A program made the position numbers and the translations under genes. DNA of 64,000 nucleotides from Anolis carolinensis (taxonomy: Eukaryota): the NCBI RefSeq assembly GCF_035594765.1, contig NC_085845.1, positions 65,962,024-66,026,023 of the forward strand. The letters run 5' to 3'. Shown piece after piece: positions 1 through 46,588 of the stretch; position 1 is the first letter of the stretch; each line of letters begins with the position of its first letter. The notes beneath the pieces were generated by a model. That model did not search any database, was not told where the DNA came from, and worked only from the letters and a program-made list of their open reading frames with translations.

Positions 1-164
1 CCGCTCCGGCAGGAAGGTAACGGCGCTCCATGCAGTCATGCCGGCCACATGACCTGGAGATGTCTATGGACAACGCCGGCTCTTCGGCTTAGAAATGGAG
101 ATGAGCACCAACCCCCAGAATCGGTCACGACTGGACTTAACGTCAGGGGAAACCTTTACCTTAC
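1..164 (+). mobile_element. Sauria SINE, 3' part (cut by the window edge)
   Basis: ggaaggtaacggcgctccatgcagtcatg...gactggacttaacgtcagggga, then (ACCTTT) tail. Confidence 0.9.
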
Positions 165-35472: not shown

Positions 35473-36224
35473 TACTATGCTATTGCCCCCAAAATAAGAC
35501 CTTACCATAAAATAGGCCCTAGCATGATTCTTGTAATATCAACCCTACCCCAAAAATAAGCCCCAGTTAAGATCATCAGCCAGATGGACGGGTTTAGTAT
35601 GTCTGTTGCAACACACGACAGACGATTGAATTTAAAAATAATAGTATAATATTAATCTATAATTAAATATAAATAAATAATATTATTGGGTTGCTGTGAG
35701 TTTTCTAGGCTGTATGGCCATGTTCCAGCAGCATTCTTTCCTGACATTTCACCCACATTTATGGCAGGCATCCTCAGAACTTGTGAGGTTTGTAGGAAAC
35801 TAGGCAAGTGGGGTTTATATATCTGTGAAAGGTCCAGGGTGGGAAAAAGAACTCTTGTCTGTTGGGGGCAAGTGTGATCACTTTAATTAGCATTGAAAAG
35901 CCTTGCAGCTTCAAAGCCTTGCTGATTCCTGCCTGAGGGAATCCTTTGTTGACTGATGAGATAATCAAGTTAATTGACATAATATTATGATAATGTTCCA
36001 GAAGAAGATGGCATGTCTGTATTTGAATAAAGGTAGATAGTTGTACGTGAATCAATGTAGAACTTTGTACATCAATAAATGAATACATGTAGATTGTTGT
36101 ACATCAATAAATGCAGATTGCCGTACATGGAAAAAGCAAGACATTCCCTGAAAATAAGCTCTAATGAGTCCTTTGGAGCAAAAATTAATATAAGACCTGG
36201 TCTTATTTTCGGAGAAATGTAGTA
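35473..36224. mobile_element. Tc1/mariner-type (Tc2/pogo-like) MITE hosting the Penelope fragment; related piece at about 22245-22330
   Basis: ta..cccccaaaataagacc / ggtcttattttcggagaaatgtagta termini; internal degenerate repeats of about 24 bp. Confidence 0.55.
35688..35951 (-). mobile_element. Older Penelope 3' fragment with a decayed hammerhead (35740-35780)
   Basis: Aligns to 41891-42150; hammerhead GAAACGTC has become GAAATGTC by CpG decay. Confidence 0.85.
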
Positions 36225-40476: not shown

Positions 40477-41942
40477 TAGGTGGTGGTGGAGGAGGAATCC
40501 ATCACACACATTGATTGATCAGTTAGTGTAGACATGGCCAAAGTTGCCTAGTCTGAAAGAAGTTCTTTCTTTAAGTCACCTGCCAGGAGACGTTCCCCGG
40601 CCTTGTTGTAGATTTTGTATGTAAACGGACTAGACCCGAAACAATCCCCATAATGTAGAGTATCTATTCACCACAGAGCTGTGGCTTCATCTGTCCATCC
40701 ACAGCTCAGCGAAAAAGGTGTACCAGGCAAAATTGTCAAATTTATCTTGAATAATAATATCATGATAAGAACCTGATGGCTTTTATTTTCTTTATACTTC
40801 TGTTACCCCAGCAGTTGCTTGGGAGCATATTGATTAATAACTGTAGACACAGCCAGAGTGTAAAGTAATGGTGCCTGAGGCATGCTCACAATTGGGTTCT
40901 CAAAGCCTCCAGATAGAAGGCTGATTTTTCTTTCCTTGCATATAAAACCGGTTTCCTTCTCCTGAAGAAGATGGACTGAGGCCAACTATATTTTGCCCCA
41001 GGCATCAACTTAGCCAGTACCCTCTCTTGCATAGATCTATTATATTTAATTAGAGATTTAAAATATAGACAGGGTTCTCCCCACCCCACCCCCGCATTAT
41101 CTGTCTGAGCTTCAATATTTATAGATTACTCACTTTTAGGAAGTACACTCATTAAGTCCTATGGCCCTTATACTGAGGAATCAAGAACAACATTGTGCCT
41201 TGAATTGCTTTGCTCTTTCTGTCCTACAAGCTTAAGTGCTCCCCCCAAAGTGTATTCTAAACCAGCATCATTTCTGTGCCATCTGCTCCAAACAAATACT
41301 TAGAGGGCTTTTAATCTCTTTCTATGGCTTGTCTTCTCCGTCATGCAAATAATGTAATCAGTGTTACACAGAGACATTTATGCATATAAATAAATCCACT
41401 TGATGCAATTGCCCACTCCTGTAGACACTTTTGAGAAGTGGAAGAATTGGTTAGGCGGTTGAGCCTCCAAATAGAGTGCCCCCATTATACATTATATGTG
41501 CAGTGGAATGGAGAAGGACAAATCCAGTAAGTATATGAACTTAGCCTGTGTTTACTTCAGTTTGAATATTGCTGTTTTACTTGAACCAAAAAGGTGTGCA
41601 GGTATAGTGGATGTGTTTAATTGCAATGAGATAAGAGGCATTTGGAGAGCCAATGTAAGACAATGTTCCATGGCAAAACTACTTCAACATATCTAAACTA
41701 TTTCATCATTCTTTACATTAAAGAGTGACATAAATGCAATTTTAGAGTGATCTCCCACGGAGTCATAATATTGGCTTAGCAAGTTCACATCATGTCACTC
41801 AGGGCCCTTCCACACAGCCATATAACTCAGAATATCAAGGCAGAAAATCCACTATATGTGTTGTCGAAGGCTTTCATGGCCAGAATCACAGGGTTGTTGT
41901 ATGTCTTTCGGGCTGTGTGGCCATGTTCCAGAAGCATTCTCT

Positions 41943-41983
41943 CCTGACGTTTCGCCCACATCTATGGCAGGCATCCTCAGAGG
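41943..41983 (-). ncRNA. Minimal type I hammerhead ribozyme, Penelope 3' repeat
   Basis: CCU CUGAGGA U GCCUGC-loop-GUGGGC GAAAC GUC^AGG: hammerhead core, 6-bp helix II, palindromic ACGU in place of helix III, as described for PLE hammerheads. Confidence 0.85.
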
Positions 41984-42101
41984 TTGTGAGGTATGGATAA
42001 ACTAAGTCAGGAAAGGAAAGAATATATATCTGTGTAGAGTCCAAGGTGTGGCAAGAGTTCTTTGTCACTGGGAGCCAGCATTAATGTTTCAGTTAATCAC
42101 C

Positions 42102-44612
42102 CTAATTGGCACTGGAAATGTTTTGTCCCTTGCCTGGGGGCATCCTTTGTTCAGTCAAGTCCTCATTGTGTTGGTTCCCATCTACTGTTTTGATTTTGGA
42201 GTTTTGTAATACTGGTAGCCAGATTTTGTTCATTTTCATGGTTTCTTCCTTTCTGTTGAAGTTGTCCACATGCTTGTGGATTTCAATGGCTTCTCTGTGT
42301 AGTCTGACATGATAGTTGTTAGAATGGTCCAGCATTTTTGTGTTCTCAAATAGTATTCTGTGTCCAGGCTGGTTCATCAAATGCTCTGCTATGGCTGATT
42401 TCTCTGGTTGAATTAGTCTGCAGTGCCTTTCATGTTCTTTGACTCTTGTTTGGGCGCTGCGTTTGGTGGTCCCTATGTAGACTTGTCCACAGCTGCATGG
42501 TATCCGGTAGACTCCTGCAGAAGAGAGAGGATCCCTCTTGTCCTTCGCTGACCGTAGCATTTGTTGGATTTTCTTCGTGGGTCTGTAGATAGTTTGTAGG
42601 TTGTGCTTCTTCATCAGCTTCCCTATGCGGTCAGTAGTTCCCTTGATGTATGGTAAGAACACCTTTCCTCTGGGTGGATCTTTGTCTTGACTCTCATGGC
42701 TTGTTCTTGGCCTTGCAGCTCTTCTGATGTCTGTGGTGGAGTATCCATTGGCCTGTAGAGCCCAGTTTAGGTGGTTGAGTTCACCTTGGAGGAGGTGAGG
42801 TTCGCAGATTCTTTGTGCACGGTCTGTCAGGGCTTTGATTGTGCTCCTTTTTTGACTTGGGTGATGGTTGGAGTTTTTATGAAGGTATCTATCTGTATGT
42901 GTAGGTTTTCTGTAAACTGTGTGGCCCAATTGTTGATTGGGTTTGCGGATGACCAGAACATCTAGAAATGGCAGTTTTCCTTCCTTTTCTTTTTCCATGG
43001 TGAATTGGATGTTTGGGTGGATGCTGTTAAGATGGTCCAGGAACTTGCTGAGTTCTTCCTCTCCATGGCTCCAAATTGTGAAGGTGTCATCTACGTATCT
43101 GAACCAAACAGTTGGCTTTTTTGGTGCTGTTTCTAGGGCCTGTTTTTCAAAGTATTCCATATAGAAATTTGCTACTACTGGGCTGAGAGGGCTCCCCATG
43201 GCCACTCCATCCTTCTGTTCATAGAATCCAGTGTCCCACTGAAAGTAGCTAGTGGTGAGGCAATGGTGAAACAGGGCTGTGATGTCTTCTGGGAAGTTTT
43301 GTTTGATTAGTGTGAGGGTGTCAGCTACTGGGACTTTGGTAAAAAGGGACACCACATCAAAGCTGATCAGGATGTCCTTGGTGCTTAGATTGAGGTTGCT
43401 GATCTTTTCTATAAAGTGTGTAGAGTCCTTGATATAATGTGCAGTGAGCCCAATGTGGGTTTGTAGCTGTGTAGCCAGAAATTTTGCCAGGTTGTAAGTC
43501 GGCGATCCAATGGCACTTACAATGGGTCTGAGTGGGATGGAGTCCTTGTGGATTTTGGGGAGTCCGTAAAGCCTGGGTGGGAGGGCTTCTGATTTGCACA
43601 GCTGTTGGCGTATGTCAAAGTTAATGGAGGAGTTCTTGATTAGAGTGTTAGTTTTTCTGGTGATTTTGTTAGTGGGGTCTTGTTTCAGTTTCTTGTAAAT
43701 TGTGGGATCTAGAAGTTGTCTGATTTTTTCTTTGTATTGTTTTGTTTCCATGATTACTGTGGCATTCCCCTTGTCAGCTGGAAGAATGATGATTTCAGGA
43801 TCTGAGTTGAGATCTTTGATGGCCTGTCTTTCTTTTCTCGTTATGTTGCTGGGGGGGAGTTTTGCATTTCTCAGGATCCTTGCTGTTTCCATTCTTACCT
43901 CCTCTGCTTCTTCCTCAGGGAGCTGATAAATTGCTGATTCAACATTGGCAATGATGTTTTCTACTGGGATCCTGGTGGTGGTGACTGCAAAATTTCCTCC
44001 TTTTTCTAGAATGGATACTTGGTCTTCAGTGAGTTGTCTGTCTGTCAGGTTGATGATGGTCCGTGATTTATCCAGTTCTGGCTTTGGCTGTTGCTTACGG
44101 CATTTGTCAAATTTTTGTTTTTGTCTCTTGGTGTGGAGAACCATGTCTTTCTCCATTTTCTTGTAGGTAAGGCTGTCTATTTTATCCCAGTCCTGGGTAT
44201 TCATCTTTTGGCTGATGTTGATGTGGAGGTGCAGCAGTTCTTTGTCTGTGTTTGCGAGTTCTTTACGGATGGTGTGGATTCTCTCTCTCAAGAGGTTGCG
44301 TTCCAGGCGGTTGTAAATGCGACGAGCCTGTGGTGTTTTGAAGGTCCTTTTGGCTGCAAAAAATTGTGGGATGGTATCTGTGTCTCTGCAGCGTAGAAGG
44401 AAGGTCAGGGAGCACAGTAGATGTGCTTTCCTGGTCCTTAGTTTTTCCAATCTCCGTGTGTCTTGGAACAATTTCTCCCCGTAGAGATGTTCAATGTGTT
44501 GTCGAAGGCTTTCACGGCCAGAATCACAGGGTTGTTGTATGTCTTTCGGGCTGTGTGGCCATGTTCCAGAAGCATTCTCTCCTGACGTTTCGCCCACATC
44601 TATGGCAGGCAT
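42102..44612 (-). CDS. Penelope-like polyprotein: reverse transcriptase + GIY-YIG endonuclease, 836 aa, intact
   Basis: RT motifs YGLPKIHK, LRPIVS, SFDVVSLFT, GVAMGSPLSP, RYVDD, LPFLD; endonuclease GVYRIPCSCGQVYIG...SAIAEH...REAIEI; no stops or frameshifts. Confidence 0.96.
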   Translation of the reverse strand: MPAIDVGETSGENASGTWPHSPKDIQQPCDSGRESLRQHIEHLYGEKLFQDTRRLEKLRTRKAHLLCSLTFLLRCRDTDTIPQFFAAKRTFKTPQARRIYNRLERNLLRERIHTIRKELANTDKELLHLHINISQKMNTQDWDKIDSLTYKKMEKDMVLHTKRQKQKFDKCRKQQPKPELDKSRTIINLTDRQLTEDQVSILEKGGNFAVTTTRIPVENIIANVESAIYQLPEEEAEEVRMETARILRNAKLPPSNITRKERQAIKDLNSDPEIIILPADKGNATVIMETKQYKEKIRQLLDPTIYKKLKQDPTNKITRKTNTLIKNSSINFDIRQQLCKSEALPPRLYGLPKIHKDSIPLRPIVSAIGSPTYNLAKFLATQLQTHIGLTAHYIKDSTHFIEKISNLNLSTKDILISFDVVSLFTKVPVADTLTLIKQNFPEDITALFHHCLTTSYFQWDTGFYEQKDGVAMGSPLSPVVANFYMEYFEKQALETAPKKPTVWFRYVDDTFTIWSHGEEELSKFLDHLNSIHPNIQFTMEKEKEGKLPFLDVLVIRKPNQQLGHTVYRKPTHTDRYLHKNSNHHPSQKRSTIKALTDRAQRICEPHLLQGELNHLNWALQANGYSTTDIRRAARPRTSHESQDKDPPRGKVFLPYIKGTTDRIGKLMKKHNLQTIYRPTKKIQQMLRSAKDKRDPLSSAGVYRIPCSCGQVYIGTTKRSAQTRVKEHERHCRLIQPEKSAIAEHLMNQPGHRILFENTKMLDHSNNYHVRLHREAIEIHKHVDNFNRKEETMKMNKIWLPVLQNSKIKTVDGNQHNEDLTEQRMPPGKGQNISSAN

Positions 44613-44621
44613 CCTCAGAGG
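44581..44621 (-). ncRNA. Minimal type I hammerhead ribozyme, Penelope 5' repeat; contains the ORF ATG
   Basis: Identical motif, 2638 nt upstream of the copy at 41943 on the - strand. Confidence 0.85.
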
Positions 44622-45650
44622 TTGTCCAATTCACCATGGAAAAAGAAAAGGAAGGAAAACTGCCATTTCTAGATGTTCTGGTCATCCGCAAACCCAATCA
44701 ACAATTGGGCCACACAGTTTACAGAAAACCTACACATACAGATAGATACCTTCATAAAAACTCCAACCATCACCCAAGTCAAAAAAGGAGCACAATCAAA
44801 GCCCTGACAGACCGTGCACAAAGAATCTGTGAACCTCACCTCCTCCAAGGTGAACTCAACCACCTAAACTGGGCTCTACAGGCCAATGGATACTCCACCA
44901 CAGACATCAGAAGAGCTGCAAGGCCAAGAACAAGCCATGAGAGTCAAGACAAAGATCCACCCAGAGGAAAGGTGTTCTTACCATACATCAAGGGAACTAC
45001 TGACCGCATAGGGAAGCTGATGAAGAAGCACAACCTACAAACTATCTACAGACCCACGAAGAAAATCCAACAAATGCTACGGTCAGCGAAGGACAAGAGG
45101 GATCCTCTCTCTTCTGCAGGAGTCTACCGGATACCATGCAGCTGTGGACAAGTCTACATAGGGACCACCAAACGCAGCGCCCAAACAAGAGTCAAAGAAC
45201 ATGAAAGGCACTGCAGACTAATTCAACCAGAGAAATCAGCCATAGCAGAGCATTTGATGAACCAGCCTGGACACAGAATACTATTTGAGAACACAAAAAT
45301 GCTGGACCATTCTAACAACTATCATGTCAGACTACACAGAGAAGCCATTGAAATCCACAAGCATGTGGACAACTTCAACAGAAAGGAAGAAACCATGAAA
45401 ATGAACAAAATCTGGCTACCAGTATTACAAAACTCCAAAATCAAAACAGTAGATGGGAACCAACACAATGAGGACTTGACTGAACAAAGGATGCCCCCAG
45501 GCAAGGGACAAAACATTTCCAGTGCCAATTAGGGTGATTAACTGAAACATTAATGCTGGCTCCCAGTGACAAAGAACTCTTGCCACACCTTGGACTCTAC
45601 ACAGATATATATTCTTTCCTTTCCTGACTTAGTTTATCCATACCTCACAA

Positions 45651-45691
45651 CCTCTGAGGATGCCTGCCATAGATGTGGGCGAAACGTCAGG
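45651..45691 (+). ncRNA. Minimal hammerhead ribozyme in the inverted copy, sense to WWC2 pre-mRNA
   Basis: cctctgaggatgcctgccatagatgtgggcgaaacgtcagg. Confidence 0.82.
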
Positions 45692-45754
45692 AGAGAATGC
45701 TTCTGGAACATGGCCACACAGCCCGAAAGACATACAACAACCCAATCCACTATA

Positions 45755-46409
45755 TGTTGCCCCCCAGGCCTGAAGCCATCTATGACCATAGCATCGCACA
45801 GGAGTCCAGAGTAAAGGCAAACAGTTTATTGCAAAACACACAAAAATATAAAGAAAAAGCAGGGATAAGGAAATAAGATAAAGAATCCCAAAAGTCAGCA
45901 ATCAATTGTCTCTGGTAAATCCAAAAGCAAACTTTCAGAATGCTTGAATTCCCCCCCCCCCCCAAAAAAAAACTTGAAACAGGAACCAGAGAACCCAGGT
46001 CTAGCCGTACTTCAAAGCCACGTTGCCTGAACTGAAATCAGAGTGTCTGTTAGCTCCTAATAAACAGACATGAAAGCATTATGTCTGCCCTGAATTTTCT
46101 GTTTCCCATGAAGCCGTATTGATCTACAAAGCTTGCTATCTGCTCTAATCTGCAAATGTGCCTCCTTGCTGAGATCAGTATCACTAGTTGCTTTCCCATC
46201 AGAGTTTCTCATCAATTCATCTTCGTTAAACTCCTTACCTAAAGAGGATGATTCCAATTCTTGTGCCTGGCTTTTAGGTTCAGAAGCATCTGTGCCTACA
46301 TCTCTATCTAACACGGTTTCACTTTCTTGGCCTGCATCAGAAGGAATCCCAGGAAAGCCCAAAGTCCAGTTTGACTCTTGGCTGTTGTGACTGCTTCTGA
46401 ACTATAACA
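45755..46409 (-). mobile_element. Solo LTR (Gypsy/BEL-like)
   Basis: TGTTG...TAACA termini; AATAAA on the - strand near 45825; 5-bp flanks CTATA / CAATA; interrupts a MITE. Confidence 0.6.
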
Positions 46410-46588
46410 CAATATCTGCTTTGAGCTGAGTTATCTGAGTCCACACTGCCATATATTCCAGTTCAAAGCAGATAATGTGGGATTTTATTCAGCTGTGTGG
46501 AAGGGGCCTGAAGTTGAGTTGGGACTTACACTTGAAACTATGCCTTCACATTACAATGACCAAACTCATCTTTTGCATTTTTCTGTAG

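What the first reader, a model, noticed from the sequence alone, without database searches (positions are those of the whole stretch)
41856..44625. Circularly permuted Penelope unit: one 2638-nt ribozyme-to-ribozyme monomer plus 132 nt
Seen: two identical minimal hammerheads on the - strand are exactly 2638 nt apart. The integrated copy starts 42 nt before the first cut site and ends about 90 nt after the second, inside the ORF start. Known: these helix-III-less hammerheads (palindromic ACGU) are thought to cleave as dimers, and retrozymes replicate via circRNA. Inference: a linear cleaved monomer cannot template both overhangs, whereas reverse transcription once round a 2638-nt circle plus 132 nt can. 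An uncleaved tandem transcript is the alternative.
Basis: partly seen in the sequence, partly recalled or inferred. Interest (0 to 1): 0.75.

Follow-up and report, generated by a model that had tools for sequence, protein, structure and literature searches.

The report
Penelope retrotransposon primed twice, template re-read
This is a young copy of a known lizard jumping gene made of two back-to-back arms; it was likely copied from an uncut linear RNA rather than a circle, but longer copies elsewhere in the genome were likely made by re-reading one repeat unit several times, which makes an old question about how these elements copy themselves testable.

Summary
The two hammerheads 2638 nt apart are real, but the finding covers only part of the insertion. 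The full insertion is 41856-45743: a 2770-nt arm, a 1119-nt inverted arm with a third hammerhead, and a 13-14-nt target duplication. The '-42' end is the arm-to-arm junction; the '+90' end matches a published internal reverse-transcription start. The element is a sister subfamily of Poseidon_Ac (Frangieh 2024), and the circle model was proposed in 2014. This copy does not need a circle: its end (ORF -13) lies in a pile-up at -12..-35 that fits an uncleaved transcript's 5' end. Family data add something I did not find in print: 49 of 49 young two-arm insertions pair one +84 end with one +118 end, and tandem units within an insertion differ at 2 of 1151 polymorphic-site comparisons (23% between insertions), in arrays up to 4.4 units. 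One unit is therefore likely re-read, by strand transfer (about 0.45) or on a circle (about 0.35). RNA ends could not be tested. The scan noted similar short Penelope layouts in other genomes.

The parts
41846..41859 (+). Target-site duplication, left copy (13-14 nt; last 3-4 nt shared with the element end)
41856..44625 (-). Long arm, 2770 nt: ORF position -13 through one full 2638-nt unit to +119 of the next
41856..41890 (-). 'Tail' (ORF +85..+119), present on the long arm only; lies between the two reverse-transcription start sites
   Evidence: PMC11167929 equates the tail with the sequence between the two start sites
41946..41980 (-). Minimal type-I hammerhead core, downstream copy; predicted cut after 41946
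41990..42028 (-). TATA-like (42022-42028) and two initiator-like motifs (41999-42005, 41990-41996), kept in both subfamilies; absent upstream of the 5' hammerhead in this copy. Promoter function not tested; the initiator consensus is recalled
42102..44612 (-). Intact 836-aa ORF: reverse transcriptase plus C-terminal GIY-YIG-type endonuclease; its ATG lies inside the hammerhead and the predicted cut is in codon 10
44494..44625 (-). 5' copy of the 132-nt repeat; one difference from the 3' copy (44515), unique in the genome
44584..44618 (-). Minimal hammerhead core, upstream copy; predicted cut after 44584
44625..45743 (+).
45654..45688 (+). Third hammerhead core, in the inverted arm
45744..45757 (+). 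Target-site duplication, right copy

Best explanation
This is a young Poseidon-type Penelope insertion of two head-to-head arms inside one target duplication, likely made when the element's protein primed both cut DNA strands at two fixed internal sites of its own RNA, the long arm likely running to the 5' end of an uncleaved linear transcript. Shown in sequence: two divergent arms ending at ORF +119 and +84, a 13-14-nt duplication, a 1-nt junction overlap, an intact ORF. Shown in vitro by others for the sister subfamily: both strands are cut and extended, synthesis starts inside the RNA at two sites, and ribozyme cleavage is not needed. Inferred: (1) one protein dimer uses both sites, one per strand; (2) the transcript starts about 20-30 nt before the ATG and ends beyond +118 of the next repeat, so it is terminally redundant; (3) at the RNA 5' end the enzyme either stops, as here, or transfers to the matching 3' repeat and re-reads the same unit, which rebuilds the upstream pLTR and gives multi-unit arrays of one haplotype. 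This copy lacks the TATA-like motif upstream of its ORF and is likely a dead end.
For: Pairing: 49 of 49 young two-arm insertions have one end at +81..90 and one at +115..127, with target matches of 12-17 nt (one 21-nt match in an AAT repeat) and both arms from one subfamily. One source unit: arms of one insertion differ at 5 of 799 shared non-CpG polymorphic sites against 14321 of 62331 (23%) between insertions; different tandem units differ at 2 of 1151 in 36 insertions. Eleven variants private among 75 insertions are fixed across different units. One occurs at exactly 4 places in the genome, all in one insertion; another at 5 places in one array plus one truncated copy. In L033 and L060 one arm stops in this zone while its partner passes it. 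In L036, L099 and L134 both arms and an internal jump end at about the same point upstream of the ATG, and L154 has tandem -134/+82 junctions. [quoted passage not shown]
Against: 40 of 48 passes cross the zone without a scar, and no full-length array showed a duplicated tail junction; a circle gives this with no extra step. Six long arms stop at +28..+45 and five at +81..+96, as cleaved RNA and a full turn of a circle would give. The transcription start is inferred from insertion ends and motif likeness only. The cluster windows were chosen after seeing the data. Only 2 of 49 long arm pairs end within 10 nt of each other (p=0.045), weak support for one RNA molecule; several transcripts of one source unit would give the same haplotype result. 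Exceptions: L031 is chimeric (3 of 19 sites), and L045, L100 and L101 have one discordant site each.
Confidence: 0.55

Rival explanations
1. Rolling-circle reverse transcription (the first reader; Cervera and De la Pena 2014): the two hammerheads cut out a 2638-nt monomer, it is ligated, and the enzyme reads round it more than once. The ORF (2511 nt) plus 127 nt of UTR is whole only across the ligated junction.
For: One haplotype in all units and both arms; arrays up to 4.43 units; 40 of 48 seamless passes; five stops near one full turn (+81..96). Six stops at +28..45, and short arms ending at +30 (L119, L136), suggest that cleavage happens in vivo. No long tandem master among 100 of 103 listed junction hits. 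Protein-assisted cleavage was shown in vitro (PMC11167929); small non-autonomous relatives form circles (PMC7229834, passages).
Against: It does not predict the -12..-35 pile-up that holds this copy. Arms that stop at +28..45 had an uncut downstream ribozyme, so those templates were linear. Ribozyme mutants insert normally and no reads end at the cut (PMC11167929). No circle of a full-length Penelope element turned up in my searches. Probability about 0.25 for this copy and about 0.35 for multi-unit arrays.
Confidence: 0.3
2. A long tandem master locus (or a DNA circle) is transcribed into a multi-unit mRNA that is copied once, as outlined by Frangieh 2024; arrays look uniform because the source was uniform or was later homogenised by gene conversion.
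For: Tandem arrays exist. It needs no new step. L101 shows two variants shared by both repeat copies of one arm but not the other arm, as conversion would give. The assembly is one haplotype, so a source may be missing.
Against: One-pass copying can only shorten arrays and should pass on unit-specific differences; 2 of 1151 comparisons are discordant. Array-wide variants have no multi-unit source elsewhere in the assembly. Eighteen single-unit private variants survive in multi-unit overlaps, so conversion or assembly polishing has not erased differences.
Confidence: 0.1
3. Self-priming or snap-back: one cDNA folds back and copies itself to make the inverted arm (related to the self-priming model of PMC3846280).
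For: It would explain shared variants between arms and the short palindromes at some junctions.
Against: The copied (+84) arm could not reach further than its template, yet it does in 30 of 49 insertions, by more than 50 nt in 28. The antisense-RNA version of the model was not tested.
Confidence: 0.05

Closest known systems
Poseidon_Ac / PAc (Frangieh et al. 2024, PMC11167929; main text parts 1-3 of 4 read, supplementary figures and the GenBank file not seen)
   Same: ATG at the start of stem II, cut 26 nt after the start codon, ends at the two start sites, tail between them. By eye, the template printed in its Methods matches the window's hammerhead and ORF start and matches subfamily B's UTR. 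The best protein hit is 99% identical and labelled Anolis carolinensis.
   Different: The window copy is subfamily A: 2638-nt rather than 2664-nt unit, a different 3' UTR, 836 rather than 846 aa with 800 of the first 810 identical. In the parts read, the paper saw no strand difference in start sites and proposes a multi-copy mRNA; it does not report strict one-site-per-arm pairing or haplotype sharing.
Canonical EN+ Penelope insertion layout (PMC8557442 and PMC3846280, passages; PMC2377424, passages and Discussion)
   Same: Partial tandem, adjacent inverted 5'-truncated copy, 30-40-nt tail on one end, target duplication, TATA and initiator-like motifs in the pLTR.
   Different: [quoted passage not shown]
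Circular-template model for PLE hammerheads (Cervera and De la Pena 2014, PMC4209133; parts 1-2 of 4 read)
   Different: It was proposed without in vivo evidence. This copy's ends favour an uncleaved linear RNA; the arrays are compatible with it.
Non-LTR retrozymes (PMC7229834, passages; bioRxiv 10.64898/2026.07.22.740005, first part and passages)
   Same: Type-I hammerhead, tandem units, likely moved by PLE proteins.
   Different: They are 170-400-nt non-coding units with circles shown for canonical ribozymes; this is a 2.6-kb autonomous coding unit with a minimal ribozyme and no circle shown.
L1 twin priming (recalled; only search listings seen)
   Same: Both target strands prime cDNA, giving an inversion inside one target duplication.
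   Different: Here both arms start near the same 3' point at fixed non-complementary sites and duplicate the same sequence, rather than splitting one RNA into two adjacent parts.

Membership tests
Penelope/Poseidon EN+ PLE | Single ORF with RT and C-terminal GIY-YIG endonuclease | tested here: met
   836-aa ORF; RVT_1 E=1.6e-13; VY-IG motif with Cys/His residues read at aa 701-745. Pfam GIY-YIG itself did not reach threshold.
Penelope/Poseidon EN+ PLE | pLTR partial tandem with 30-40-nt tail | tested here: met
   132-nt direct repeat; 35-nt tail on one arm
Penelope/Poseidon EN+ PLE | Adjacent inverted 5'-truncated copy and target duplication | tested here: met
Penelope/Poseidon EN+ PLE | Minimal hammerhead in the pLTR | tested here: met
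   three cores; Rfam has no matching model hit
Penelope/Poseidon EN+ PLE | Clade placement by RT phylogeny | not tested
   No tree built; assignment rests on the by-eye match to the PAc template and the 99% protein hit
Poseidon_Ac Repbase consensus | Same UTR as the published consensus | tested here: not met
   The printed UTR matches subfamily B by eye; the window carries the divergent A UTR. Sister subfamily.
Retrozyme / circular-RNA retroelement | Non-coding, non-autonomous unit of 170-1000 nt | tested here: not met
   2638-nt unit with an intact ORF
Retrozyme / circular-RNA retroelement | Ribozyme-to-ribozyme monomer accumulates as circular RNA | not testable with these tools
   Only assembled contigs were offered; they cannot show ends or circles
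Retrozyme / circular-RNA retroelement | More-than-unit cDNA from one monomer | tested here: inconclusive
   Re-reading of one unit is supported, but strand transfer on a linear RNA predicts the same

The most novel reading that the evidence does not exclude
An autonomous vertebrate Penelope element replicates through a 2.6-kb protein-coding RNA circle made by its own hammerheads: a dimeric enzyme primes both target strands on the one circle at sites 34 nt apart and rolls round it up to 4.4 times, and the start codon is restored only across the ligated cut. Insertion ends at +28..45 would be fossil evidence of cleavage in the germline.
Probability: 0.33. Interest if true: 0.8.

Novelty: new member of a known kind. 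Interest (0 to 1): 0.47.

Why it matters
How Penelope-like elements, the sister group of telomerase, rebuild their pseudo-LTRs, tandems and inversions is called open in the 2008, 2021 and 2024 papers read. The single locus does not settle it and is an ordinary copy of a studied family. The family census does narrow it: each two-arm insertion uses both start sites once, and multi-unit arrays descend from one unit. That argues against plain read-through of a tandem master and against cDNA snap-back, and leaves two mechanisms (circle or repeated strand transfer) that an existing in vitro system for this same family can tell apart.

Tried and rejected
Rfam scan: no hammerhead model hit. RNA runs: no RNA holder on record, only contigs; laying four guessed-RNA contig sets covered the unit but cannot show ends, circles or strand, and showed no well-supported splice joint in the ORF. 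Using the one difference between the two 132-nt repeats as a circle test: it is unique to this locus, so it is a copying error or later mutation and decides nothing. Looking for tail-versus-internal differences that separate circle from strand transfer: too few variants in 150 nt. Same-point stops of long arm pairs: 2 of 49 within 10 nt, none in excess within 100 nt. Cofolding two hammerheads did not return the swapped dimer as the lowest-energy fold; the ACGU duplex alone is -3.1 kcal/mol, so dimer cleavage is neither shown nor excluded. No solved structure of a close relative. A third array-wide variant had three extra hits, which proved to lie on other haplotypes. An ungapped count of first-pass ends gave 19 of 30 rather than 17 because it stops at indels; the gapped figure is used. 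Term search in the 2024 paper's readable supplements found nothing.

Full report
Observation. The two hammerhead cores lie at 44584-44618 and 41946-41980 on the - strand, 2638 nt apart, inside 132-nt direct repeats that differ at one base. An intact 836-aa ORF runs 44612-42102; its ATG is inside the ribozyme and the predicted cut is after ORF nt 29. The next in-frame ATG is at +409, so a cleaved linear monomer would lose the N-terminus. In ORF coordinates the long arm runs from -13 to +119 of the next unit and the inverted arm from +1604 to +84. The '132 extra nt' are 13 + 119.

Identity. The best protein hit is 99% identical and labelled Anolis carolinensis. Frangieh et al. 2024 (PMC11167929, main text parts 1-3 of 4; supplementary figures not seen) studied this family: both strands are cut and extended, reverse transcription starts inside the RNA at two sites that bound the tail (the main one at +111..118), the ribozyme cuts only with protein, ribozyme mutants insert normally, and no RNA-seq reads end at the cut. 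Their printed template matches by eye my subfamily B (2664-nt unit); the window is subfamily A (2638 nt, different 3' UTR). The partial tandem with inverted copy and one-sided tail is the standard layout (PMC8557442, PMC3846280; passages). The circle model is in the Discussion of PMC4209133. PMC2377424 calls pLTR regeneration unexplained.

Census. An exact 33-mer of the tail occurs 10,444 times; the junction that continues into the ORF occurs 103 times, 100 listed. I fetched loci and mapped arms. Of 47 young full ORFs, 43 are intact. For counts I kept arms at least 97.5% identical with outer ends at +78..128; single-arm, older and complex insertions, and a minor class ending near +151 (for example L089, L105, L115, L130), were left out of the pairing count.

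Result 1, pairing. All 49 two-arm insertions that met these criteria have one end at +81..90 and one at +115..127, none with two of a kind (p about 2e-15 if arms chose freely), with target matches of 12-17 nt and one 21-nt match in a simple repeat. Both arms are of the same subfamily in 49 of 49. The +84 arm reaches further in 30 of 49, which rules out its being copied from the other arm's cDNA.

Result 2, one source unit. Arms of one insertion differ at 5 of 799 shared non-CpG polymorphic sites (47 pairs), against 23% between insertions. Different tandem units within 36 insertions differ at 2 of 1151. Eleven variants seen in only one of 75 insertions are fixed across different units. Genome-wide, one is found 4 times, all in one insertion; one 5 times in a 4.4-unit array plus one truncated copy; a third 4 times in one insertion plus three hits on other haplotypes. 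Copying a tandem transcript once can only shorten arrays and should pass on unit-specific differences, so a step that multiplies one unit is inferred. Against: L031 is chimeric, L045, L100 and L101 each have a discordant site, the assembly is one haplotype, and several transcripts of one source unit would look the same as one molecule.

Result 3, where long arms stop. Of 60 passes through an upstream ORF start (51 arms), 5 stop at +81..96, 7 at +22..43 (6 at +28..45) and 8 at -12..-35; 40 of 48 go on past -39 without a scar; beyond -40 the rate is 0.4-0.9 stops per kb. Poisson p values are 5e-4 to 5e-3, 6e-5 to 1e-3 and 1e-6 to 7e-5 for two background rates, with windows chosen after the fact; the first cluster is weak. 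TATA-like and initiator-like motifs at -54/-51, -31/-32 and -22 are kept in both subfamilies. I read the -12..-35 zone as the 5' end of an uncleaved transcript, and the +28..45 zone as RNA cut at the upstream ribozyme only, or as pausing at a predicted hairpin there.

Mechanism. For this copy, about 1 of the 8 stops in the zone is expected from background, so an uncleaved linear template is favoured (about 0.65; circle 0.25). For multi-unit arrays, strand transfer across the terminal repeat explains the stops, the partner arms that pass the same point (L033, L060) and short elements with jumps from that point (L036, L099, L134); a circle explains the seamless passes more simply but needs a mixed pool of linear and circular RNA. 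I put these at about 0.45 and 0.35, the rest on tandem or DNA-circle sources. Both need strand displacement if one RNA is read twice (that PLE enzymes lack RNase H is recalled). RNA ends could not be examined: only contigs were offered.

Novelty. The element, its layout, its start sites and the circle idea are in print. Five searches found no paper reporting strict one-site-per-arm pairing or haplotype sharing in arrays; subscription papers are not in the library and the 2024 supplementary figures were not seen, so this may be partly known. Earlier scan notes on short Penelope insertions in other genomes reach similar 'standard layout, circle not shown' readings; they are unchecked and not counted as support. 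Verdict: real but incompletely described; first reading partly supported; interest 0.47.

Noticed in passing
window 41799-41850 and 46406-46511: Two halves of an older palindromic (MITE-like) element: inverted arms at 41799-41825 / 46485-46511 and a 30-nt hairpin at 46408-46479. The Penelope copy and about 650 nt of other sequence lie between them; contigs continue from 41850 into sequence like that at 46408.
   Followed up: no
window 35688-35841 and 2312-2384: Two older, 78-85% identical pLTR fragments of the same family; the first ends at the +84 site and the second at the +118 site.
   Followed up: no
window 44515, 44360, 44323, 43926: Four variants private to this copy all fall in the first 690 nt of the ORF, none in the last 1670 nt; two turn CAT into CGT. 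Cause unknown.
   Followed up: partly
L089, L098, L105, L115, L130 and others: A third, minor outer end near ORF +151, so the ends are spaced about 34 nt apart (+84, +118, +151); it may reflect the geometry of the protein on the RNA.
   Followed up: no
L003, L019, L022, L024, L154: Short tandem arrays of 135-220-nt pLTR units, retrozyme-like, whose junctions join a point upstream of the ATG to a start site rather than to the ribozyme cut.
   Followed up: partly
L059, L054_55, L096, L056 junctions: Short templated insertions of 6-19 nt at arm junctions near the ribozyme cut; in two cases a re-copy of sequence ending at ORF +55.
   Followed up: no
protein of window 42102-44612: Insect-labelled proteins are 56% identical over most of the length (ladybird, weevil) and unnamed contigs up to 62%; horizontal transfer is possible, no tree was built.
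   Followed up: no
subfamilies A and B, ORF +2434 onward: Two co-active subfamilies share a nearly identical ORF and ribozyme but have diverged 3' UTRs and C-termini; no two-arm insertion mixes them.
   Followed up: partly
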